Below are positions 9,519-41,606 of a DNA stretch of 64,000 nucleotides, in pieces (position 1 is the first letter of the stretch; every line of letters starts with the position of its first letter). This stretch comes from an uncultured Acidimicrobiales bacterium (GTDB taxonomy: Bacteria; Actinomycetota; Acidimicrobiia; Acidimicrobiales; DATKAS01), in NCBI GenBank assembly GCA_963802505.1, contig CAWDJB010000002.1, positions 20,627 through 84,626 on the forward strand, written 5' to 3'. The notes beneath the pieces were generated by a model, which was not told the DNA's origin, ran no database searches, and worked only from the letters and a program-made list of their open reading frames with translations. The translations under genes were made by a program, and so were the position numbers.

Positions 9519-10673
9519 CTAGCGCACCGCGCCCGACTCACGCAGCTTCGTGACCTCGTCCGCGCCCATGGACAGCCAGTCGGACAACACGTCGTCGGAG
9601 TGCTGCCCGACGTTGGACGGCGGGCGCGAGATCTCGGCCTGCGTCCGCGAGAAGCGCGGTGCCGGCGCGGGCTGCGAGACGCCGCCGATGTCGACGAACG
9701 TCTTGCGGGCGACGTTGTGCGGATGCTTCACGGCTTCTCCGACGGTGAGCACGGGAGCGAAGCACACGTCGGTGTGCTCCATGAGCGCGCACCATTCGTC
9801 GCGGGTCTTCGTGAGGAAGACCTCGCGCAGGCGCTGCTTCAGCGCTGGCCACGCGGATCGATCCATCTGCTTGGCGAACTCGGGATCGTCGGCGAGACCC
9901 GTGATGCGCATGAGCTCGGCGTAGAACTGGGGCTCGATCGACCCGATCGACACGTACTGGCCGTCAGCACATTCGTACGCGTCGTAGAAGTGGGCGCCAG
10001 TGTCGAGGAGGTTGGTGCCCCGTTCGTCGTTCCACATCCCGGTGGCGAAGAAGCCATGGAACATCGACATGAGGATCGCGGCGCCGTCGACCATCGCCGC
10101 GTCGACGACCTGACCTTGGCCCGACTTCTGGGCGTCGAGCAGCGCGCACACGACGCCGAACGCGAGGAACATCCCGCCGCCGCCGAAGTCGCCGACGAGG
10201 TTGAGCGGCGGCACGGGAGGCCCGTCGACGTTGCCGATGTGCGCGAGGCAGCCGGCGAGCGCGATGTAGTTGATGTCGTGTCCTGACCACGCCGCGTACG
10301 GACCCTCTTGACCCCAACCGGTCATGCGCCCGAAGACGAGCTTCGGGTTGCGGGCATGGCACTGCTCGGGGCCCAGCCCCAGCCGTTCCATGACCCCGGG
10401 ACGGAAGCCCTCGATCAACCCGTCGGCGGTCTCGACGAGCTTGAGCACCGTCTCTACGCCGTCGGGGTTCTTCAGGTCGACCGCCAGCGAGCGCCGGCCG
10501 CGTCCCATCACGTCGTAGTACGGGGGCGGAGCGGATGCGTCGCCCGAGGCACGCTCGGCCCGGTCGATCCGCACCACGTCGGCGCCCATGTCGGACAGCA
10601 ACATCGCGCAGAACGGTCCCGGGCCGATGCCTGCGATCTCGATGATGCGGTATCCGGTAAGCGGTCCGGCCAT
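9519..10673 (-). CDS. family III CoA-transferase (CaiB/BaiF), alpha-methylacyl-CoA racemase-like
   Basis: 384 aa, [31 protein letters not shown] and the GDFGGGG region are typical of the family. Confidence 0.85.
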
Positions 10674-34267: not shown

Positions 34268-35204
34268 ATGGCGGACATGGCGAGGATCATCTGGTTCTTC
34301 CAACGGCAGCTCGGGCTCATCACGCGCGAGCAGTGCGTTGCGTGCGGCTTGACCGAAGGGCAGATCACGCATCGACTCCGATCGGGGCTCTGGGTCGAGA
34401 TGCGCCCGGGTGTTTACGCACTCGGAGGTGTGGCTCCGTCGTGGGAACAGGCCCTTCTCGCGGTCACGCTGACGGGGAGGCCTGCCTACGCATCGCACGC
34501 GTCGGCCGCCCACCTCTGGGGGATACGGGGTTTCCTCGACGTTCCCGACTCGATCGAAGTGGTCACTGCTCTTGGGCGCTTGTCGCGCTTGGAGGGCGTG
34601 CGCGGGCACCGCTCGGGCGCGCTCTTCGACAGCGACCTCACGGTGCGCGGGTCAGTCCTGACTGTGACCGCGGCGAGAGCGATCGTCGATGTGTCGGGAC
34701 GGCTCGTCCCGAAGGAGCTCGGCTACCTGGTCGACGACGCGCTCCGCCGGCGACTCATGTCGCTAGAGGGTCTACGGCGTTGCGCGGAGCGGTTGGGACC
34801 GGCGCCGGGGCGGTCCATGAAGGGGATGCAACGAGTTCTCAGGGACCGACTCCCCGGTTACTCGCCGGGAGACAGCGACCTCGAGACGCGCGCGCTACGC
34901 GCGCTGGTCGGCGCCGGGCTGCCGCCGCCCCGACAGCAGTTCCGGATGGAGCTCGCAGGTCGACGCGTCCGGATCGACTTGGCCTATCCCGAGCAGCGCA
35001 TCGCCATCGAGCTGGACGGTTGGGACACACACCGGTTCCGCTCATCCTTCGACGCGGACCATGCCCGGCGCGACGACCTTCTTGTCGCCGAGTGGTCGCC
35101 GGTCACGTTCACCTCGGCTATGACAGACGAGTACCTGGTGTCGGTCGTCGAGCGGCTGTACCGCCGCGCCATGGCGACGTTCGCCGCGATCGCCCGCGGC
35201 ATAG
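34268..35204 (+). CDS. AbiEi_4-like N-terminal / DUF559 endonuclease-like domain protein; 3' end unresolved
   Basis: MADMARIIWFFQRQLGLITREQCVACGLTEGQITHRLRSGLW... and C-terminal RIDLAYPEQRIAIELDGWDTHR...DDLLVAEWSPVTFT (DUF559). The homologous part ends near 35170, but the frame has no stop until 36736. A +1 shift in the CGCGCC tract near 35165 would terminate at TAG 35202-35204. Confidence 0.5.
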
Positions 35205-35245: not shown

Positions 35246-36403
35246 TCAGGAGAGGCCGAGTTCGGCGAGCACTTCGGCGGTGTGCTCGCCCAGCGTGGGA
35301 ACACGGCCGGGTGCCGCGACATGGTCAGACGCCGGCTCGAATCGCACCGGCGTCGACACCGACTTGTACTGCTCCCCGTCGATGCCGGCCATCTCGACGA
35401 ACATGCCAGCGGCGTTCGCCTGCGGGTCGGCCAGCACGTCGCGCAACGTGTTGACCGGCGCCCACCACACGTCGTGCGCGTCGAAGCGCTCGACCCACTC
35501 GTCGAAGGTGCGCGTCGCGAACAGCTCGTCGAGCTCGGCGATGAGCGCCGCGCAGTTCTCGCGTCGCCCCACCGACGTGCTGAACCGCTCGTCCTCGGCG
35601 AGGTCGGTGCGATCGATGGACCGCAACAACCCGGGCCAGTGGCGATCTCCCTCGAGGCCGAGCAGCCAGAACCATCGATCGTCGGCCGTCTTGTAGCAGT
35701 TGACGAGGGGCGCAGGAGCGAGCGTCCGCGACTTCGTCGAGGAGATCTTGCCGAAGCCCGACAGGATCGAGAGGTCCCAGCCCATGCAGTAGATGCCGGT
35801 GCCCAGCAGCGATACCTCGACCAGGCGCCCCTCACCGGTGCGCTCACGTTCGAGGAGTGCGCCGAGCAATCCAGCGAGGACGGTCAGCCCGGTGGTGTGA
35901 TCGCCGTACCCGCTGCGGATGGTGGGCGGCACCTCGGTCGGCGGCACGAGCGTCGCGGCCGCGCCGCTCCGGGCCCAGAACGCCCCGATGTCGTAGCCCG
36001 CTCGATCGCGCTCGGGTCCTTCGAGGCCGTAACCGGTCACGCTCGCGTAGACGATGCGCGGCAGACGCGCGCGCACGGTCTTCGGGTCGAGCCCGAGGCG
36101 CTCGAGCGCGTCGACGCGAAGGTTCGTGAGGAACACGTCCGCGGTCTCGAGCAGCTTCCACATCGCGGCGATGCCGGCCTCGGATCGCAGGTCGAGCACG
36201 ACCGAGCGCTTGCCGCGGTTGTCGAGCTCGAACGGCGGAACCTTCGTCTGCCGCACGCCGATCGCTCCGAACAGCTTGCGCATCGGGTCGCCCTCGGGCG
36301 GCTCGACCTTGATCACGTCGGCGCCCCAGTCGGCGAGCACGCCGCCGGCCGCGGGGCCAGCCACCCACACGGACAGCTCGACGACGCGCAGGTGGTCGAG
36401 CAT
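35246..36403 (-). CDS. family III CoA-transferase (CaiB/BaiF)
   Basis: ATG at 36403 (MLDHLRVVELSVWVAGPAAGGVLADWGADVIKVEPP...), 385 aa. TGATG overlap with the upstream gene. Confidence 0.85.
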   Translation of the reverse strand: MLDHLRVVELSVWVAGPAAGGVLADWGADVIKVEPPEGDPMRKLFGAIGVRQTKVPPFELDNRGKRSVVLDLRSEAGIAAMWKLLETADVFLTNLRVDALERLGLDPKTVRARLPRIVYASVTGYGLEGPERDRAGYDIGAFWARSGAAATLVPPTEVPPTIRSGYGDHTTGLTVLAGLLGALLERERTGEGRLVEVSLLGTGIYCMGWDLSILSGFGKISSTKSRTLAPAPLVNCYKTADDRWFWLLGLEGDRHWPGLLRSIDRTDLAEDERFSTSVGRRENCAALIAELDELFATRTFDEWVERFDAHDVWWAPVNTLRDVLADPQANAAGMFVEMAGIDGEQYKSVSTPVRFEPASDHVAAPGRVPTLGEHTAEVLAELGLS

Positions 36404-38160
36404 CAGAGCACCGTCACCGTTCCTGCCCGGCCATCGACCTCGATCATTGCGCCATCGGGGATGCGACGCGTCGCGTCGATGACGGACACGACGCACGGCA
36501 AGCCCAGCTCGCGGCTCACGATCACCGCGTGTGTGATCTGGGCACCGACGTCGACGACGACCGCAGCGGCGGGGACGAACAATGGCGTCCACGACGGATC
36601 GGTCAGCGGCGCGACGAGCACGTCGCCTGGCTCCAGCCCTCGAGGGTCGGACGGATCGAGCACGACACGCGCTCGGCCTCGAGCCACACCCGGACAGCCC
36701 GGGATGCCGGTGAGCACCTCTCCCGCGACCGCGTGATCAGCGCCGCTGGCCGCGGCGCGGTGCCGCCACTCCGAGATCGGGGGCGGCGCGCCGCGGGAGA
36801 CGAACGGCGGCTCGAGATCCCAGAGCTTCAGGTAGAACGCCTCGCGCTCCTTCGCGAGCGCGGTGAAGTCGGCCGGGCGCTCGACGAAGTCGTCGAGCTC
36901 GAGATCGACGAGCATGAAGATCTGCTCGATGTTCTGGAGATCGCCGCGTGCGACGGCCCGACGACCGAGCTCGCGCAGTGCGAGCCGCTGCTCGTGCACG
37001 AGCTTGATGTTGTTCGTCTTGGTTCGCTCGCGGCCCGCGTTGTAGAGATGCGCGCACCGCAAGCCGACCTCGAACGTGCCGGCCGCTTCCGCATCGCCAG
37101 CGACGACCTCGCGCACGAAGTCGGTGGCAGCTTCGCGTTCGGCGATGCGGAGCTCGGTGCGAACCTGCGGCGAGTCGTCGTCGGGAGCGAAGCGCATGCG
37201 ATCGATCGCCGCCAGCGGCACGTCCGGATCGATGCCCCACGTGCGGCTACGGAGCTCCCATTCGTTCGGGCCGCGCGCTCCGAATCGGTCGATGAAGCTG
37301 CCGAAGAGCTTCCAGAAGTCCTCGGCAGATGGGTTGCCTGACTCGGCGAGGTCGCGGAGACGGTGGTGGAGGCCGATCGACCCCGTGTCGAACGCCGCCG
37401 TGAGATCGGGCGAGCCCTTCACGATGCGAGACATATCCCACATCGACCAGCTCGGCGCGGCGGAGTCGACGTCGCCGAGCCCGGCCACGAGGGTCATGAT
37501 CAGCTCGGGCTGCTCGATCGCCGCGAGCACCCCGACGACGGTGCCGATGCCGATGCCCGACGCTCCCGAGACGAGGATGTGCCGGCAGAACAACCGGCGA
37601 TACAGCGGCAGGAAGCTGCGGGCGTAGTCGACGAGCTCTTGATCGGTGAGCTCGTCGAAGTCGGGCCGGCGGGCGATCAGACGGTCGACCTGATCGCGAT
37701 CGGCCCGCAGCTCGGGAAGGTCGTCTCGAGTGAACAGCTCGTCGAGGTACTCCTGGAGAAGCTGCGTGGCGAGCTCGTTCTCGTCGTCGGGACGCGCCTC
37801 GTCGGCGTACGGGGTGATGCCCGGCATGTCGCCGAAGTACTGGAAGTCGACGATCTCGGGCGAGAGACCAGGCGTGCGCAACCCGTAGATGCGCGTCATC
37901 GACATGTTGAGGTACAGGTAGCCACCGAAGACGCCGACTGTGTCGGGCCGATCCGGATCGAACTCGTCGTAGAAGAACGACCCTGCCTTCACGTATGCGT
38001 CGCGCCAGCCGAGGTCGCCTGCCGACGCGAGCCCCATCGTCGACGAGAGCGGGGAGACCGGGTCGGGCATGACCTCGCCCGCGTTCGCCCTTGTGTAGAT
38101 CGAGTACTTCTCGCTCGGAAGGGTGTCCGCGCTCCAGCGCTCTGTCACTCGCTCTGACAT
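36403..38160 (-). CDS. PEP-utilizing-enzyme swivel-domain protein, RPH / phenylphosphate synthase alpha-like, no ATP-grasp domain (paralog B)
   Basis: ATG at 38160 (MSERVTERWSAD...), 585 aa. YTRANAGEVMPDPVSPL, RGPNEWELRSRTW, GRERTKTN, and C-terminal LTDPSWTPLFV...VGAQITHAVIVSRELGLPCVV...GTVTVL. The track ORF start at 38745 is an artefact overlapping paralog A. Confidence 0.8.
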   Translation of the reverse strand: MSERVTERWSADTLPSEKYSIYTRANAGEVMPDPVSPLSSTMGLASAGDLGWRDAYVKAGSFFYDEFDPDRPDTVGVFGGYLYLNMSMTRIYGLRTPGLSPEIVDFQYFGDMPGITPYADEARPDDENELATQLLQEYLDELFTRDDLPELRADRDQVDRLIARRPDFDELTDQELVDYARSFLPLYRRLFCRHILVSGASGIGIGTVVGVLAAIEQPELIMTLVAGLGDVDSAAPSWSMWDMSRIVKGSPDLTAAFDTGSIGLHHRLRDLAESGNPSAEDFWKLFGSFIDRFGARGPNEWELRSRTWGIDPDVPLAAIDRMRFAPDDDSPQVRTELRIAEREAATDFVREVVAGDAEAAGTFEVGLRCAHLYNAGRERTKTNNIKLVHEQRLALRELGRRAVARGDLQNIEQIFMLVDLELDDFVERPADFTALAKEREAFYLKLWDLEPPFVSRGAPPPISEWRHRAAASGADHAVAGEVLTGIPGCPGVARGRARVVLDPSDPRGLEPGDVLVAPLTDPSWTPLFVPAAAVVVDVGAQITHAVIVSRELGLPCVVSVIDATRRIPDGAMIEVDGRAGTVTVL

Positions 38161-39887
38161 CAGAGGACCGTGACCGTTCCGGTCGAGCCGTCGACGCGCA
38201 CCCGCGCACCGTCGGGGATCGCCTTCGTCGCCCCAGTGACGGAGACGACGCACGGGATGCCGAGCTCGCGGCTCACGATGATGGCGTGGCTCTGCAGGGC
38301 ACCCACATCGACCACGACCGCAGACGCAGTCACGAAGAGCGGCGTCCACGACGGATCGGTGATCGGCGCAACGAGGACATCGCCCGGCTCGAGCGCCGTG
38401 GGATCGTGCGAGTCGAGGATCACGCGGGCGCGGCCCTCGGCGACACCGGGGCACCCGGACAAGCCGGTGAGCGAGTCGCCCGGCTCGAGCCGCCTCACCT
38501 GCACGGCGTCGCGGCGCGTCCACGCCGCGGGGAAGTCGGGTTCGCCGACGAACACGAACGGCGGGTCGAGCGCTTGCAGCTCGCGGTACTGCTCGCGACG
38601 AGCACGGATCGTGTTCGTGAACGCCGTCGGGTCGGCGAGGAAGTCGTCGAACTCGACCTTGCCCAGCATCCCGAAATCTTCGATCTCGTCGAATGCTCCG
38701 CGCTCGACCATTCGGCGGCCCAGCTCTCGCAGCGTCATCCGGCACTCGTGGAGCATCCGTATCGCGTTGGTCTTCGAGCGCTCACGTCCGGGCAAGAAGA
38801 CGCGCGCGGCGCGCACGGCCGCGACGAACTGCCCCTGTGTCGCGGGATCTCCGGCGAGCGCCTCGCTGAGCTGGGCCGTGAGCTCCTCTCGGTCGGTCGC
38901 CATGCGTGAGTTCTGCGTGAGGGGCGCGGCGCCGAGCGGCGAGAGGCGCATGCGGTCGACCGCCGCGAGCGCGAGGTCGGGTCGGGTCTCCCAGGTCGGA
39001 GAGCGCATCTCCCACTCGTTCGGGCCTCGCGACCCGTAGAGGTAGAGGAACTCGTCGATCATCTGGCAGAGCTTCACCGCGCTCTCGTCGGTCGACGCGC
39101 GCAGTCGATCGTGCAGCCCCTCGATGCCCTTGTCGAACTCGCCCATCAACGACGGCGATGCAGCGACCTCCCGGCCCATGTCCCACATCGCGACTGACGG
39201 CGCTGCCGAATCGACCTCGCCCAGCCCTCCGATCAAGCGCATCATCAGCGATGGGTCGCCGACTGCCGCGGCCATCGCCGTGAGGATCCCGACCGGCAGC
39301 GTCGCCATGTACGACATGAAGATGTGATGTGCGAAGAGGTCGCGGAAATGCGCGTCCATGAGTGTGAAGTAGCGGTCGGCGAGCTCTCGGTCGCTCATCG
39401 CGCCCAGGTCGGGCCGCTCGTCGCGCAGCCGCTTCGTCATGATCTGGTCGTCGATGAGCTCGGGAAGATCCTCGGTCGTGAGGGCCCACCCGAACGTCTG
39501 GCCGATCCTCTCGGTCTTGCCCAAGTCGACGTCGCCGGGCTGCTCCTCGTAGGGCGGGATGCCGGGCTGAGCGCCGAAGAACTGCTCGTCCATCGCCGCC
39601 GCAGACAGACCGGGCGCCCGTTCGCCGAACAGCCGGATCAGCGATGCGTTCAAGTAGCAGTAGCCACCCGTGATGCCGAGCTGCTCGATGTTGTCCGGAT
39701 CGAACTCTTCGTGATCGAAGGCGCCGACCCGCGCCCACGCGTCGCGCCAACCGAGCTCGGCGAGCCAGATGCCGGTGTCGCGTGTCAACGGCGTCACCGG
39801 GTCTGGAAACACCTCGCCGACATTTGCTCGCGTGTAGATGGGCCACTTCGTGCTGAGCTCGCTGTCGGCGATCCAGCGCTCGACCAT
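38160..39887 (-). CDS. PEP-utilizing-enzyme swivel-domain protein, RPH / phenylphosphate synthase alpha-like, no ATP-grasp domain (paralog A)
   Basis: 575 aa. YTRANVGEVFPDPVTPL, RGPNEWEMRSPTW, GRERSKTN, and C-terminal ITDPSWTPLFV...VGALQSHAIIVSRELGIPCVV...GTVTVL. Confidence 0.8.
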   Translation of the reverse strand: MVERWIADSELSTKWPIYTRANVGEVFPDPVTPLTRDTGIWLAELGWRDAWARVGAFDHEEFDPDNIEQLGITGGYCYLNASLIRLFGERAPGLSAAAMDEQFFGAQPGIPPYEEQPGDVDLGKTERIGQTFGWALTTEDLPELIDDQIMTKRLRDERPDLGAMSDRELADRYFTLMDAHFRDLFAHHIFMSYMATLPVGILTAMAAAVGDPSLMMRLIGGLGEVDSAAPSVAMWDMGREVAASPSLMGEFDKGIEGLHDRLRASTDESAVKLCQMIDEFLYLYGSRGPNEWEMRSPTWETRPDLALAAVDRMRLSPLGAAPLTQNSRMATDREELTAQLSEALAGDPATQGQFVAAVRAARVFLPGRERSKTNAIRMLHECRMTLRELGRRMVERGAFDEIEDFGMLGKVEFDDFLADPTAFTNTIRARREQYRELQALDPPFVFVGEPDFPAAWTRRDAVQVRRLEPGDSLTGLSGCPGVAEGRARVILDSHDPTALEPGDVLVAPITDPSWTPLFVTASAVVVDVGALQSHAIIVSRELGIPCVVSVTGATKAIPDGARVRVDGSTGTVTVL

Positions 39888-39899
39888 CGGTCGCTCCCC

Positions 39900-39909
39900 C
39901 TGACGTCAG
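39900..39909. promoter_or_regulatory. 10-bp perfect palindrome CTGACGTCAG, 13 bp upstream of paralog A start
   Basis: Read directly. Lies in the 78-bp divergent gap between paralog A and the ABC1/UbiB kinase gene. Confidence 0.25.
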
Positions 39910-39965
39910 CGTTTCACCGCCCCCGCGGCGCTTGCGCAGAGTAGTCGTCCCGGTTCGCGCCAACG

Positions 39966-41606
39966 ATGGGGGCTGCGAGACTGGACGACGTGAACGAGCC
40001 AGCAACACGGGCGGCCGCCGGCGAGAGCGGCCCGGCGGACCTCGCGTTCGGCGCGTTCAGCGACGACCCGCCGTGGGTGCTCGATCCCGACGACATCACG
40101 TGGCTCGCGGGGCTCGAGGCCGTGCGCGCGGCATGTCGAGGCGAGGTCCCCGAGCTCACCCGGCCGCGCCGGGTGCCGCCGGGATGGCGCGTCGCGCGGG
40201 TGACGGCACGCCTCGGACGGGCGGTCGGCGGGTGGGCGCTCTTCGAACGACGAAAAGGCGAGCACGTCTCGCGTGCCGGGATCTCGCGGCGCCTTCGCGT
40301 GGCCGCCACTGACCTCGGCTCGACCTACATCAAGCTCGGGCAGATCATCTCCGCCGGCGAGGGATTGTTTCCCGAAGAGCTCGTGAGCGAGTTCAAGCTC
40401 TGTCGAGACCGAGTGCCGGCGGAGAGCTTCGACAGGGTGCGTGCCGTGGTCGAACAAGATCTGCGCTGCCCGCTCGAAGAGGTGTTCGCGGAGTTCGAGC
40501 GCGTGCCGCTCGCGGCGGCCTCGATCGCGCAGGTGCACGCGGCCACGTTGCACACCGGCGAGCGCGTCGTCGTGAAGGTCCAGCGGCCACAGGTCGCGAA
40601 GCTCGTCCGCCAGGACCTGGCGGCGATGTCGTGGCTCGCCCCGCACCTGGTGGGCCGCATCCCGATCGCCGCGCTCGCCAACCCGCCCGCGCTCGTCGAG
40701 CTGTTCGCAGAGACCATCACCGAGGAGCTCGACTTCCGGCTCGAAGCCCAGAACATGCTCGACATCGCCCGCGTGCTGACCGAGCTCGGCCAGCGCGGCT
40801 ACGTCGTGCCGCGGCCGCATCCGAAGCTCGTCACGCGACGGGTGCTCGTGATGGAACGCCTGTCGGGCTTCGGGTTCGATGACGTCGAGAGCATGCAACG
40901 TGCCGGCATCGACACGACCGCCGTCATCCGCACCGGGATGGTCGCCTTCATGGAAGGGGCGCTGATCTACGGCATCTTCCACGGCGACCTGCATGCCGGG
41001 AACCTGTTCGTGCTCCCCGACGGCCGCACCGCGCTGCTCGACTTCGGCATCGTCGGTCGACTGAGCGAACCGCGTCGGCTCGCCTTCCTGCGGTTGATGA
41101 TGGGTGCGACGACGAACGACATCAAGGGTCAGCTCGCGGCGCTGCGCGATCTCGGCGCGCTCCCTGCCGACACCGACCTCGACGCGGTGATCCACGACCT
41201 GCGCCTCGACCAACCGCCGGTCGACCCGACGACCCTCTCCGGCGAAGAGCTGGTCCACGAGATCCAGCGCACGGTGAAGGCGCTCCTCGGCTACGGCGCG
41301 CGCATGCCGAAAGAGCTGATGCTCTACGTGAAGAACATGGTGTTCCTCGACGGCGCGATCGCCCGCCTCGCCCCCGACCTCGACCTCCTCGCCGAGATCA
41401 CGGCCATCTCTGCCTACTTCGCCACGCGTCACGGCGATCGCCTCGCGGCCGACATCGGCATCCACCCGATGGACGTGCCGATCGACCTCGAAGGAGTGAA
41501 GGCGTCGTTCGGTGTCGACGCCTCGACCGAGTCCCTGACCTACCGCGATCTGCAGCGGCGCCGCGAGCTGATCGGCAAGCGGCTCAGGAACCGGTCGTCT
41601 GAGTAG
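39966..41606 (+). CDS. ABC1/UbiB (AarF) atypical kinase family protein
   Basis: 546 aa. LGSTYIKLGQIISAGEGLFPEELVSEF, PLAAASIAQVHAA, VVVKVQRP, HGDLHAGNL. Confidence 0.85.
   Translation: MGAARLDDVNEPATRAAAGESGPADLAFGAFSDDPPWVLDPDDITWLAGLEAVRAACRGEVPELTRPRRVPPGWRVARVTARLGRAVGGWALFERRKGEHVSRAGISRRLRVAATDLGSTYIKLGQIISAGEGLFPEELVSEFKLCRDRVPAESFDRVRAVVEQDLRCPLEEVFAEFERVPLAAASIAQVHAATLHTGERVVVKVQRPQVAKLVRQDLAAMSWLAPHLVGRIPIAALANPPALVELFAETITEELDFRLEAQNMLDIARVLTELGQRGYVVPRPHPKLVTRRVLVMERLSGFGFDDVESMQRAGIDTTAVIRTGMVAFMEGALIYGIFHGDLHAGNLFVLPDGRTALLDFGIVGRLSEPRRLAFLRLMMGATTNDIKGQLAALRDLGALPADTDLDAVIHDLRLDQPPVDPTTLSGEELVHEIQRTVKALLGYGARMPKELMLYVKNMVFLDGAIARLAPDLDLLAEITAISAYFATRHGDRLAADIGIHPMDVPIDLEGVKASFGVDASTESLTYRDLQRRRELIGKRLRNRSSE

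What the first reader, a model, noticed from the sequence alone, without database searches (positions are those of the whole stretch)
35246..39887. Tandem ATP-grasp-less RPH / phenylphosphate-synthase-alpha-like paralogs translationally chained to a CoA-transferase
Two adjacent genes (575 aa and 585 aa) align with each other end to end. From my knowledge of the family, they also align with the C-terminal two-thirds of rifampicin phosphotransferase and with the alpha subunit of phenylphosphate synthase. That region is a substrate-binding domain (YTRANxGEVxPDPVxPL, RGPNEWExRSxTW, GRERxKTN) followed by the PEP-utilizing-enzyme swivel domain. The phospho-carrier histidine is intact in both copies (GALQSHAIIVSRELGIPCVV and GAQITHAVIVSRELGLPCVV). 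Neither copy has the N-terminal ATP-grasp (PPDK_N) domain that normally loads this histidine from ATP, and I saw no ATP-grasp gene anywhere in the 64 kb. The three genes are linked by identical TGATG stop/start overlaps (38162-38158 and 36405-36401), which implies stoichiometric co-expression with a family III CoA-transferase. The only nucleotide-using candidate nearby is the divergently transcribed ABC1/UbiB atypical kinase (39966-41606), with a CTGACGTCAG palindrome in the shared 78-bp gap. The likely picture is a heteromeric phosphotransfer module acting on a carboxylate or CoA-ester substrate, with its phosphoryl donor encoded elsewhere or of a new type.
Basis: partly seen in the sequence, partly recalled or inferred. 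Interest (0 to 1): 0.65.

Follow-up and report, generated by a model that had tools for sequence, protein, structure and literature searches.

The report
Tandem partnerless halves of split dikinase
Two neighbouring genes encode the substrate-binding, phosphate-carrying half of a known two-part kinase family (rifampicin and phenol dikinases), but the ATP-binding half is absent here and near the same gene in about 80 related genomes, so their substrate and phosphate source remain open.

Summary
On the minus strand, genes A (38160-39887, 575 aa), B (36403-38160, 585 aa) and a family III CoA-transferase (35246-36403) are joined by TGATG overlaps. A and B are 49% identical end to end.

Both consist of a helical RPH-type substrate-binding domain plus a C-terminal phosphohistidine swivel domain. 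Both keep the catalytic His and the Arg-Glu-x-x-Lys motif that RPH needs to pass phosphate to its substrate. Neither has an ATP-grasp domain, and none was found in the window.

This architecture is already characterised. It is the "H" component of two-component small-molecule dikinases (PpsAB, CreHI, HpeHI), which need a separate ATP-grasp "I" component.

What differs here:
- No I gene lies within 10 kb in 81 Acidimicrobiia loci.
- Copy number varies from 1 to 3.
- The CoA-transferase accompanies the extra copies.
- Efflux-type MFS genes are common neighbours.

An obligate A+B heteromer is not supported, because A occurs alone in most relatives. The UbiB adjacency (49 of 70 loci) sits in a broadly syntenic region, and the palindrome is not conserved.

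Distant relatives co-occur with, or are fused to, a short PPDK_N+His protein. The likeliest phosphate donor is therefore an unlinked ATP-grasp protein. This is a new operon variant of a known kind, of moderate interest.

The parts
38160..39887 (-). Gene A, 575 aa. H-type dikinase component: helical RPH-like substrate-binding domain (about residues 1-440) plus phosphohistidine swivel domain (about 470-575). Member of the conserved 'A-clade' of Acidimicrobiia.
36403..38160 (-). Gene B, 585 aa. Paralogue of A (49% identity) with the same two domains. Belongs to a separate, accessory 'B/C' clade that is about as close to H proteins of actinobacterial cre-like clusters (48%) as it is to A.
35246..36403 (-). 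Family III CoA-transferase, 385 aa (PF02515 over its full length, 350.7 bits). Specificity unknown. Closest solved relatives are 4ed9 and M. tuberculosis Rv3272.
38158..38162 (-). TGATG stop/start overlap between A and B
36401..36405 (-). TGATG stop/start overlap between B and the CoA-transferase
38286..38288 (-). Codon of His534 of A, the predicted phospho-carrier. It aligns with His825 of RPH-Lm and is invariant in all 80 A-clade sequences.
38772..38786 (-). Codons of Arg368-Glu369-Arg-Ser-Lys372 of A. They align with Arg666-Glu667...Lys670 of RPH-Lm, the residues needed for transfer of phosphate from His to substrate.
36529..36531 (-). Codon of His544 of B, the predicted phospho-carrier
37018..37032 (-). 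Codons of Arg377-Glu-Arg-Thr-Lys381 of B, the same phosphotransfer motif as in A
39888..39965 (.). Gap between A and the divergent ABC1 gene. It holds the G-rich ribosome-binding site of A (GGGGGAG) and the palindrome CTGACGTCAG at 39900-39909. The palindrome as such is not conserved. A related leader, GACGTCTGGGGGGACG, is conserved upstream of A in Ilumatobacteraceae loci.
39966..41606 (+). ABC1/UbiB-family atypical kinase-like gene, a neighbour whose functional link is unproven. PF03109 scores 212 bits. It falls below the UbiB equivalog cut-off (306 against 487.55 bits). The true start may lie downstream, because homologues align only from about residue 18-25.

Best explanation
A and B are substrate-specific 'H' components of split, RPH-like small-molecule dikinases. 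Each binds a hydroxylated small molecule in its helical domain. Each passes a phosphoryl group to that molecule from a phosphohistidine on its C-terminal swivel domain, using the conserved Arg-Glu-x-x-Lys site.

The histidine is most likely charged in trans, through a transient encounter, by an ATP-grasp 'I' protein encoded elsewhere in the genome. Candidates are a short PPDK_N+His protein of the PRK05878/Rv1127c type, or an HpeI/PpsB-like protein. One such I protein could serve several H paralogues, which would explain the lack of linkage.

A is the conserved core gene of the lineage. B (and C in other genomes) are old accessory paralogues, probably with different substrate preferences. In this lineage B is co-translated with a CoA-transferase, which suggests a substrate that also carries a carboxylate handled as a CoA thioester.

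Shown: domain architecture, conservation of catalytic residues, operon structure, phylogenetic distribution and co-occurrence patterns.

Inferred: catalytic activity, the identity and location of the donor, the substrate class, and any A-B interaction.
For: **Architecture and fold:**

**Catalytic residues**
- The residues equivalent to RPH His825, Arg666, Glu667 and Lys670 (functions from PMC4844700) are invariant. This holds in 80 A-clade sequences and in all B/C-clade sequences that cover those positions, 30-32 of 32.

**Characterised homologues**
- PpsAB, CreHI and HpeHI have exactly this split.
- All need both parts for ATP-dependent activity (PMC12167813).

**Related H proteins with an I gene nearby**
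- A-like H proteins (45-48% identical to A and B) sit in actinobacterial clusters with cre-like gene content. The content is SurE, P450, aldehyde dehydrogenase, SDR, ferredoxin/reductase and TetR, together with a 500-aa PPDK_N+His protein. That protein passes the NF004531 cut-off (637 against 456 bits).
- The I gene is adjacent or within about 3.5 kb in Diaphorobacter, M. branderi, Rhodococcus sp. LW-XY12 and a second Rhodococcus ZPP locus. A metagenome contig carries a compact I-H-MFS operon.
- All 7 plasmids with a full-length A-like H also carry this I subfamily, at distances from 1 kb to 750 kb.

**Fusion proteins**
- P0269 is an H unit (41% identical to A) fused to PPDK_N+His. P0296 and P0384 are similar.

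**Copy number**
- Tree and copy-number table.
Against: - No PPDK_N gene lies within 10 kb of the A-clade gene in 81 Acidimicrobiia loci (about 1.4 Mb in all) or anywhere in the 64-kb window.
- In every characterised system the I gene is in the same cluster.
- I could not show that any Acidimicrobiia genome encodes a stand-alone I protein. The named hits among the best 120 I-type proteins are all Actinomycetes or unclassified Actinomycetota.
- The 'cre-like' label of the comparator clusters rests on gene content, not on comparison with C. glutamicum sequences.
- The swivel motif differs from the PEPS/RPH consensus: V-D-V-G-A-x-x-S-H instead of T-x-x-G-G-x-x-x-H.
Confidence: 0.55

Rival explanations
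1. ATP-independent transphosphorylase. A and B work without any ATP-grasp partner. They take a phosphoryl group from an already phosphorylated metabolite onto the swivel histidine and pass it to another hydroxyl acceptor. This would recycle phosphate within a pathway, for example from a phosphorylated product or a phosphoacyl-CoA to an incoming substrate.
For: - HpeH alone transfers phosphate from 4-phosphoacetophenone to acetovanillone (PMC12167813).
- No I gene lies near A in 81 loci.
- The Rhodococcus sp. ZPP homologue sits inside a cluster that makes phosphorylated CoA-ester intermediates by analogy with lva. The cluster holds AMP-binding, APH kinase, small protein, H, acyl-CoA dehydrogenase and SDR genes. 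The lva analogy comes from my knowledge of Rand et al. 2017.
- An acyl-CoA dehydrogenase lies next to A in the marine loci L038, L042 and L062. An APH kinase lies about 8 kb from A in L038 and L062.
Against: - No natural H-only system has been described.
- The exchange reaction of HpeH and PpsA is a partial reaction of the full dikinase cycle.
- Fusions link A-like H units to PPDK_N.
- In the window, no kinase other than the ABC1 protein is nearby to make a phosphorylated donor.
Confidence: 0.15
2. The divergently transcribed ABC1/UbiB-family protein is the nucleotide-using partner. It charges the swivel histidine of A, or phosphorylates the substrate that A then handles. This would be a new kind of donor for a PEP-utiliser swivel domain.
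For: - UbiB and A are divergent neighbours in 49 of 70 loci with enough upstream sequence.
- A kinase-like-fold gene lies near an H-type gene in five other contexts:
  - APH in L083, L084 and L085;
  - EcKL in L086;
  - a gene annotated 'tyrosine protein kinase' in L091.

- A mycobacterial ABC1 protein (Rv3197/MABP-1) is an ATPase that binds a small-molecule antibiotic (PMC8696161).
Against: - The whole region is syntenic (NucS, MaoC, SDR on one side; IMPase, ABC-F on the other), so adjacency may be inherited rather than selected.
- 21 of 70 A-clade loci lack UbiB. Only the L038/L062 group among them has another kinase-like gene within 10 kb.
- A DUF6687 gene separates the two in L058, and a similar gap of about 1.1 kb occurs in L021, L048 and L059.
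- None of the seven long fusion proteins checked among the best 150 representatives joins an H unit to a kinase-like fold.
- The shared-gap palindrome is not conserved.
- To my knowledge, no ABC1 protein is known to phosphorylate a protein histidine in trans.
Confidence: 0.1
3. Rival on physiological role, compatible with the main mechanism. The module inactivates a toxic natural product or xenobiotic by phosphorylation, as RPH does, and works together with export. It is not a catabolic entry step.
For: - A DHA2 efflux-type MFS gene passes TIGR00711 (326 against 230 bits). It follows the last paralogue directly in 25 loci.
- Two other efflux-type MFS families (a weaker EmrB-like one and a Tet(A)-like one) sit upstream of A in L019/L035 and L006. 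This points to independent recruitment.
- Distant H genes are also followed by MFS genes in L122 and L123.
- The closest solved structure is an antibiotic kinase.
Against: - The window itself has no such MFS gene.
- The CoA-transferase and the acyl-CoA-type neighbours in relatives (AMP-binding, enoyl-CoA hydratase, acyl-CoA dehydrogenase, P450) fit catabolism better.
- All characterised two-component members are catabolic.
- A-clade conservation across a whole class suggests a common environmental or endogenous substrate rather than one particular antibiotic.
Confidence: 0.3
4. B, or both genes, are decaying or non-catalytic remnants of a once complete dikinase operon.
For: - B is interrupted in the two closest long-read assemblies, at different positions (L001, L081).
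- Copy number is unstable.
Against: - In the window both reading frames are intact.
- Third-position GC is 0.88 for the A open frame.
- His and the Arg-Glu-x-x-Lys motif are invariant across all clades.
- The A, B and C clades predate the divergence of the sampled Acidimicrobiia lineages.
- The interruptions occur in long-read assemblies (the MFD bin of L001 and the ENA contig of L081), which are prone to indel errors.
Confidence: 0.05

Closest known systems
Two-component small-molecule (phenol) dikinases: PpsAB (Thauera), CreHI (Corynebacterium glutamicum), HpeHI (Rhodococcus rhodochrous GD02), AcvAB (Sphingobium SYK-6). A and B correspond to the H/alpha component.
   Same: - About 575-640 aa, with an RPH-type helical substrate-binding domain followed by a C-terminal phosphohistidine swivel domain.
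- No ATP-grasp in the same chain.
- Ser precedes the catalytic His, as in CreH and PpsA.
- A and B are 45-48% identical to H proteins of actinobacterial clusters with cre-like gene content.
   Different: - No I (ATP-grasp) gene lies in the cluster or within 10 kb in 81 loci.
- There are 1-3 tandem H paralogues.
- The partner genes are a CoA-transferase and efflux-type MFS genes, not carboxylases, P450s or phosphatases.
- The substrate is unknown and need not be a phenol.
Rifampicin phosphotransferase RPH (for example RPH-Lm, PDB 5fbt/5hv1) and the related PigC/RedH/HapC condensing enzymes
   Same: - Best structural and sequence match over the RIF-binding and swivel domains.
- His825, Arg666, Glu667 and Lys670 equivalents are conserved.
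   Different: - RPH is a single chain with an N-terminal ATP-grasp domain of about 310 aa, which A and B lack.
- Identity is only about 21% over the structural alignment.
- A scores far below the NCBIfam equivalog cut-off (161 against 999 bits).
Short PPDK_N+His proteins (NCBIfam NF004531/PRK05878) and SDR/epimerase-H fusions (NF004520/PRK05865). From my memory, the M. tuberculosis examples are Rv1127c and Rv2047c.
   Same: - The first is the candidate trans-acting partner. It co-occurs with A-like H genes on all 7 plasmids examined and is fused to an H unit in P0269.
- The second shows H-type modules attached to other enzymes. P0255 is an SDR joined to an H unit 47% identical to A.
   Different: - Neither type is present in the window.
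- To my knowledge their functions are uncharacterised.
lva-type hydroxyacyl-CoA kinase pathway (LvaA-E of Pseudomonas putida; ACAD10/11 in mammals)
   Same: - The Rhodococcus sp. ZPP homologue of A lies inside a cluster with the same gene kinds: acyl-CoA synthetase, APH kinase, small protein, acyl-CoA dehydrogenase and SDR.
- The window operon also couples the H proteins to CoA chemistry.
   Different: - lva uses an APH-fold kinase, not a swivel-histidine enzyme.
- No H-type protein is part of the described lva pathway.
- The resemblance is by gene content only and comes from my knowledge of the literature.

Membership tests
Two-component small-molecule dikinase, H component (PpsA/CreH/HpeH type) | RPH-type helical substrate-binding domain followed by a C-terminal PEP-utiliser swivel domain in one chain of about 550-650 aa | tested here: met
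   - PF00391 at 500-570 (A) and 510-580 (B).
- PF27448 Rph_4th on homologues.
- AF2 model all-helical over residues 1-440, then the swivel domain.
- Foldseek best hit RPH-Lm, TM 0.62.
Two-component small-molecule dikinase, H component (PpsA/CreH/HpeH type) | Catalytic histidine in the swivel domain, preceded by Ser or Cys | tested here: met
   - Ser533-His534 in A and Thr543-His544 in B.
- His is invariant in 80 A-clade sequences and in all 30 B/C-clade sequences that cover the position.
- A's His aligns with RPH His825.

Two-component small-molecule dikinase, H component (PpsA/CreH/HpeH type) | Residues for transfer of phosphate from His to substrate (RPH Arg666, Glu667, Lys670) | tested here: met
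   - Arg368-Glu369...Lys372 in A and Arg377-Glu...Lys381 in B.
- Invariant across clades.

Two-component small-molecule dikinase, H component (PpsA/CreH/HpeH type) | Cognate ATP-grasp (I/beta) component encoded next to it or in the same gene cluster | tested here: not met
   - No PPDK_N in the 64-kb window or within 10 kb in 81 Acidimicrobiia loci. Tested with phmmer using E. coli PpsA N-terminus and the Rhodococcus and Diaphorobacter I proteins.
- Pfam on the four genes of the finding plus 30 other window ORFs found none.
Two-component small-molecule dikinase, H component (PpsA/CreH/HpeH type) | ATP-dependent phosphorylation of a phenolic substrate that requires both components and yields AMP and Pi | not testable with these tools
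   This needs biochemistry.
Rifampicin phosphotransferase (single-chain RPH) | N-terminal ATP-grasp (PPDK_N) domain in the same polypeptide | tested here: not met
   - No PF01326.
- The protein starts at the position equivalent to about residue 320 of RedH.
- The N-terminal domain is all-helical.
Rifampicin phosphotransferase (single-chain RPH) | Score above the NCBIfam equivalog cut-off NF041857 | tested here: not met
   160.8 bits (A) and 128.3 bits (B) against a cut-off of 999.
PEP synthase / pyruvate phosphate dikinase | ATP-grasp domain and C-terminal PEP/pyruvate-binding barrel flanking the swivel domain | tested here: not met
   - Only the swivel domain matches: about 100 residues, 96 bits against a cut-off of 598 for PRK06464.
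- Foldseek hits to PPDK are limited to about 118 residues.
Family III CoA-transferase | Full-length CoA_transf_3 domain | tested here: met
   - PF02515 over residues 2-375 of 385, 350.7 bits.
- No NCBIfam equivalog is reached; the best is succinate--glutarate CoA-transferase at 182 bits against 750.
- PDB relatives 4ed9 and Rv3272.
UbiB (ubiquinone biosynthesis ABC1 kinase) | ABC1 domain and a score above the UbiB equivalog cut-off | tested here: inconclusive
   - PF03109 at 212 bits is met.
- TIGR01982 at 306 bits is below the cut-off of 487.55, and NF003404 at 209 bits is below 667.
- It is therefore an ABC1-family member, not a demonstrated UbiB.

The most novel reading that the evidence does not exclude
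The A-clade proteins of Acidimicrobiia have no ATP-grasp partner at all. Their swivel histidine would then be charged in one of two ways:
- by the neighbouring ABC1/UbiB-family atypical kinase, which would give that enigmatic family a first defined phosphotransfer partner; or
- from a phosphorylated metabolite, which would make them free-standing transphosphorylases that recycle phosphate between pathway intermediates such as phospho-CoA esters.
Probability: 0.12. Interest if true: 0.8.

Novelty: new variant of a known kind. Interest (0 to 1): 0.4.

Why it matters
Two-component dikinases were recognised as a subfamily only in 2025, and every characterised member acts on phenols with an adjacent ATP-grasp gene.

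This locus shows a widespread branch organised differently:
- At least 541 relatives were found in a collection holding one genome per species, and the best 80 are almost all labelled Acidimicrobiia or unclassified Actinomycetota.
- The best-matching representatives that align over the whole of A are nearly all about 575 aa.
- H units are alone or in tandem, unlinked from any ATP-grasp gene.
- They are tied instead to efflux-type transporters and a CoA-transferase.

If the donor is a shared, distally encoded ATP-grasp protein, this would be a 'one charger, many substrate modules' design. If there is none, the phosphate source is new.

Either way, the substrates of an abundant enzyme family in freshwater, marine and soil Acidimicrobiia are unknown. 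They could concern turnover of lignin-derived or other hydroxylated acids, or natural-product tolerance.

Tried and rejected

**Exact-sequence look-up of A: nothing on record**.

**ATP-grasp elsewhere: none found.** I looked in the window and in the A-anchored Acidimicrobiia loci. The tools were phmmer with three queries and Pfam on the four genes of the finding plus 30 other window ORFs.

**Other recurrent partners of distant H genes: none in the Acidimicrobiia loci, except APH in L038 and L062**. The partners searched were DUF7065/DUF7064, the 206-aa and 128-aa small proteins, and APH/EcKL kinases.

**P0032 as a possible fusion: rejected.** This 815-aa protein is 62% identical to A. Its N-terminal extension reads like a translation of the strand opposite the neighbouring ABC1 gene, so it looks like a mis-called start.

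**Palindrome as a shared operator: rejected.** It is not conserved.

**MarK aromatic kinase as a relative: rejected.** It belongs to a different fold family, UPF0261.

**Trying to show an I-type protein in Acidimicrobiia: inconclusive**.
- A search with the Rhodococcus I protein returned only Actinomycetes or unclassified hits among the best 120.
- No hit shared a contig length with the long contigs that carry A homologues.

**Literature searches: nothing found** for PF27448, DUF7064/DUF7065, or for the combination of a PEP-utilising enzyme with acyl-CoA dehydrogenase and phosphotransferase in Rhodococcus.

**Method notes**
- My first GC3-based gene caller missed many genes in lower-GC loci. 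Neighbourhood counts were therefore redone with tblastn.
- The simple promoter/terminator scan gave nothing usable.

Full report
**1. What is there**

The window is high-GC DNA (about 68%). Its closest relatives are metagenome-assembled Acidimicrobiales.

Three genes run head to tail on the minus strand:
- A, 38160-39887, 575 aa
- B, 36403-38160, 585 aa
- a family III CoA-transferase, 35246-36403, 385 aa

Both junctions read TGATG, so each stop shares one base with the next start. A and B align end to end at 49% identity.

An ABC1/UbiB-family gene starts 78 bp upstream of A on the other strand. CTGACGTCAG lies in that gap.

**2. Domain anatomy**

- Local Pfam finds only the PEP-utiliser swivel domain at the C-terminus of A and B. 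It finds no PPDK_N and no PEP-binding barrel.
- Precomputed annotation of homologues adds PF27448 (Rph_4th).
- NCBIfam profiles of RedH, PigC and RPH align A from residue 17 to the end, against positions from about 320 onwards of those 860-880-aa enzymes. That is everything after their ATP-grasp domain.
- PDB sequence search gives RPH-Lm residues 561-866.
- An AlphaFold2 model (31-sequence alignment, pLDDT 81.5, pTM 0.83) is purely helical to about residue 440, then forms the beta-rich swivel domain. Its best structural match is RPH-Lm with rifampicin (5fbt, E 1e-17, TM 0.62 over 485 columns).
- A cryptic ATP-grasp is therefore excluded.

**3. Catalytic competence**

In RPH-Lm, His825 carries the phosphate. 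Arg666, Glu667 and Lys670 are needed for the second transfer, to the drug (PMC4844700).

In the HMMER alignment these residues fall on A His534, Arg368, Glu369 and Lys372. B has the same residues.

The His and the Arg-Glu-x-x-Lys residues are invariant. This holds in 80 A-clade sequences and in all B/C-clade sequences that cover those positions, 30-32 of 32.

The most conserved motifs (YTRANxGEVxPDP and RGPNEWE, plus the GGYCYL loop) coincide with the lowest-confidence loops of the model. That would fit mobile active-site elements, though this is my inference.

**4. This architecture is known**

Dexter et al. 2025 (PMC12167813) define a subfamily of two-component small-molecule dikinases.
- HpeH, CreH and PpsA carry the RIF-binding-like and swivel domains.
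- HpeI, CreI and PpsB carry the ATP-grasp domain.
- Both parts are required for ATP-dependent phosphorylation.
- HpeH alone can move phosphate between aryl phosphates.

What needs explaining is the missing I component and the operon partners.

**5. Distribution in relatives**

A scan of a collection holding one genome per species found at least 541 relatives. The best 80 loci are almost all labelled Acidimicrobiia or unclassified Actinomycetota, apart from a few odd bin labels.

- *Clades.* A neighbour-joining tree puts the first copy of every locus in one A-clade, including copies in other genomic contexts. Second and third copies form separate B and C clades that also attract a Rhodococcus protein. 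The duplications are therefore old, and B and C have often been lost.
- *Copy number.* It ranges from 1 to 3. Among loci with enough downstream sequence, 42 have one copy, 8 have two and 6 have three.
- *CoA-transferase.* One lies within 3.5 kb downstream in 2 of 42 single-copy loci. One of those two is L001, where B is present but interrupted. The figures are 4 of 8 for two-copy loci and 4 of 6 for three-copy loci. The same B-CoA-transferase junction recurs in metagenome contigs of the window's own lineage (L092, L093).
- *MFS.* A DHA2 efflux-type MFS gene passes TIGR00711 (326 against 230 bits). It follows the last paralogue in 25 loci. Other efflux-type MFS genes precede A in L019/L035 and L006. 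The window has none.
- *UbiB.* It is the divergent neighbour in 49 of 70 loci. However, NucS, MaoC and SDR genes on one side and IMPase and ABC-F genes on the other are conserved as well. A DUF6687 gene is inserted between UbiB and A in L058, and a similar gap of about 1.1 kb occurs in L021, L048 and L059.
- *Palindrome.* It is absent even from the 90%-identical L001. What is conserved upstream of A is a G-rich leader, GACGTCTGGGGGGACG, and a -10-like TACGAT.

**6. The missing partner**

No PPDK_N-like sequence exists in the window or in the 81 Acidimicrobiia loci. Pfam on the four genes of the finding plus 30 other window ORFs shows ordinary chromosomal genes and no ATP-grasp. Examples are PEPCK, a 2-oxoglutarate dehydrogenase fusion, UvrD, ABC-F, a galactokinase and a second CoA-transferase.

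Outside this lineage the partner is visible.

- *Cre-like clusters.* A-like H proteins (45-48% identical to A and B) lie in actinobacterial clusters with cre-like gene content. The clusters hold SurE-type phosphohydrolase, AMP-binding, P450, aldehyde dehydrogenase, SDR, TetR and ferredoxin/reductase genes. They also hold a 500-aa PPDK_N+His protein that passes NF004531/PRK05878.
- *Adjacent cases.* In Diaphorobacter, M. branderi, Rhodococcus sp. LW-XY12 and a second Rhodococcus ZPP locus, the I gene is adjacent or within about 3.5 kb.
- *Plasmid co-occurrence.* All seven plasmids with a full-length A-like H carry this I subfamily, at 1 kb to 750 kb distance.
- *Compact operon.* A metagenome contig has an I (315 aa, PPDK_N only)-H-MFS operon (L123).
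- *Representatives.* Among 1.84 billion representatives, those best hits that align over the whole of A are nearly all about 570-590 aa. The seven unusually long hits that I checked are fusions:
  - H to PPDK_N+His (P0269, whose H unit is 41% identical to A; P0296 and P0384 also combine PPDK_N and swivel domains with an H unit);
  - H to H (P0356, P0381);
  - SDR to H (P0255).
  
  None is fused to a kinase-like fold.

**7. Interpretation**

Most likely (about 0.55), A and B are active H components charged in trans by an unlinked ATP-grasp protein. A single charger serving several H paralogues, through the transient encounter documented for HpeHI, would remove the pressure for linkage. The Rhodococcus sp. 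ZPP plasmid, with four H-like places and I genes 560 kb away, behaves this way.

This is the main gap.

Rival mechanisms:
- H-only transphosphorylation, about 0.15.
- Charging by the ABC1 protein, about 0.10.

One recurring pattern keeps both rivals alive. Kinase-like-fold genes lie near H genes in several unrelated contexts. Acyl-CoA dehydrogenases lie near them in L083, L084, L086 and L038/L062.

An obligate A+B heteromer is not supported, since A is usually alone. A facultative A-B pairing remains possible for three reasons:
- HpeH appears to exist partly as a dimer in solution.
- H-H fusions exist, although these could be assembly artefacts of overlapping genes.
- The two genes are translationally coupled.

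**8. Physiological role**

The role is open. CoA-transferase coupling and acyl-CoA-type neighbours in relatives point to a hydroxylated or phenolic carboxylic acid processed as a CoA ester. The repeated, independent association with efflux-type MFS transporters points to detoxification and export. I rate catabolism or scavenging somewhat higher for this window, which has the CoA-transferase and no MFS gene.

**9. Verdict**

The proteins are new members of a known enzyme kind, in an operon arrangement not described before: partnerless, tandem, and linked to a CoA-transferase or an MFS gene.

Interest is moderate (0.4). It would rise sharply if whole-genome analysis showed that no ATP-grasp partner exists.

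Noticed in passing
window 34268-35185 (+), frame open to 36736: An ORF with an AbiEi_4 N-terminal domain (33.9 bits) and a weak REase_MTES_1575-like C-terminus lies between the IMPase gene and the CoA-transferase, convergent with the latter. Its frame has no stop until 36736, far into the antisense of the CoA-transferase and B, so it may be a remnant. At this position L081 has a RidA-family gene instead.
   Followed up: partly
window 39888-39930; about 100 nt upstream of A in L010, L015, L020, L029, L033, L058 and others: A leader is conserved upstream of the A-clade gene across Ilumatobacteraceae loci. It consists of a -10-like TACGAT/TAACAT about 35-40 nt before the start and GACGTCTGGGGGGACG just before the ATG. 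The latter is a G-rich ribosome-binding site flanked by the short inverted repeat CGTC...GACG. The window's palindrome overlaps a diverged copy.
   Followed up: partly
window 9519-10673 (-): A second family III CoA-transferase lies in the window. It is only 30% identical to the one in the operon. It is 55% identical to the CoA-transferase that sits with HpaB, SDR and enoyl-CoA hydratase in the actinobacterial cluster with cre-like gene content, L087 13209-14324.
   Followed up: partly
L058 8236-9230 (-); a similar gap of about 1.1 kb in L021, L048, L059: In L058 a DUF6687 gene (273 bits) is inserted between the ABC1 gene and A, on the ABC1 strand. It breaks the direct divergent arrangement. 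The same-sized gap in L021, L048 and L059 was not examined.
   Followed up: partly
P0269, P0296, P0355, P0384, P0356, P0381, P0255 (representative proteins): Natural or assembly-derived fusions of A-like H units were found. Partners are PPDK_N+His (P0269, and with lower identity P0296 and P0384), a second H unit (P0356, P0381) and an SDR (P0255, whose H unit is 47% identical to A). P0355 and P0384 each carry four or five swivel domains.
   Followed up: partly
L085 5824-6738; L086 6830-7792; L084 9324-10460: A DUF7065/DUF7064 protein lies just upstream of distant H-type genes in Diaphorobacter and M. avium. It lies two genes upstream, with a weaker match, in Rhodococcus sp. ZPP. It has no homologue in the Acidimicrobiia loci.
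   Followed up: partly
L083 14621-15706; L084 10457-11482; L085 13083-14588; L086 4570-5673; L091 13028-14083; L038 19304-20254; window 39966-41606: A gene with, or annotated as having, a kinase-like fold lies within a few kb of an H-type gene in seven unrelated contexts. The types are APH, EcKL, an annotated 'tyrosine protein kinase' and ABC1. In L083, L084, L086 and L038 an acyl-CoA dehydrogenase is also nearby. No explanation was tested.
   Followed up: partly
L001 11737-13471; L081 11728-13474: In the two closest long-read assemblies, gene B is interrupted at different positions (about residue 457 and about residue 308). In L001 the CoA-transferase also matches only in part. The cause could be indel errors or decay of the accessory genes.
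   Followed up: no
window 39966-40040: Homologues of the ABC1 protein align only from about residue 18-25 of the 546-aa ORF, and L081's gene is 531 aa. The true start may therefore be downstream and the intergenic gap larger than 78 bp.
   Followed up: no
L104 9165-9905, L105 237-977, L110 5394-6125, L102 8284-9012: In more distant metagenome loci (H about 40-44% identical to A and B), an SDR gene lies next to or near the H gene. This echoes the SDR-H fusion P0255 and the PRK05865-type fusion proteins.
   Followed up: no
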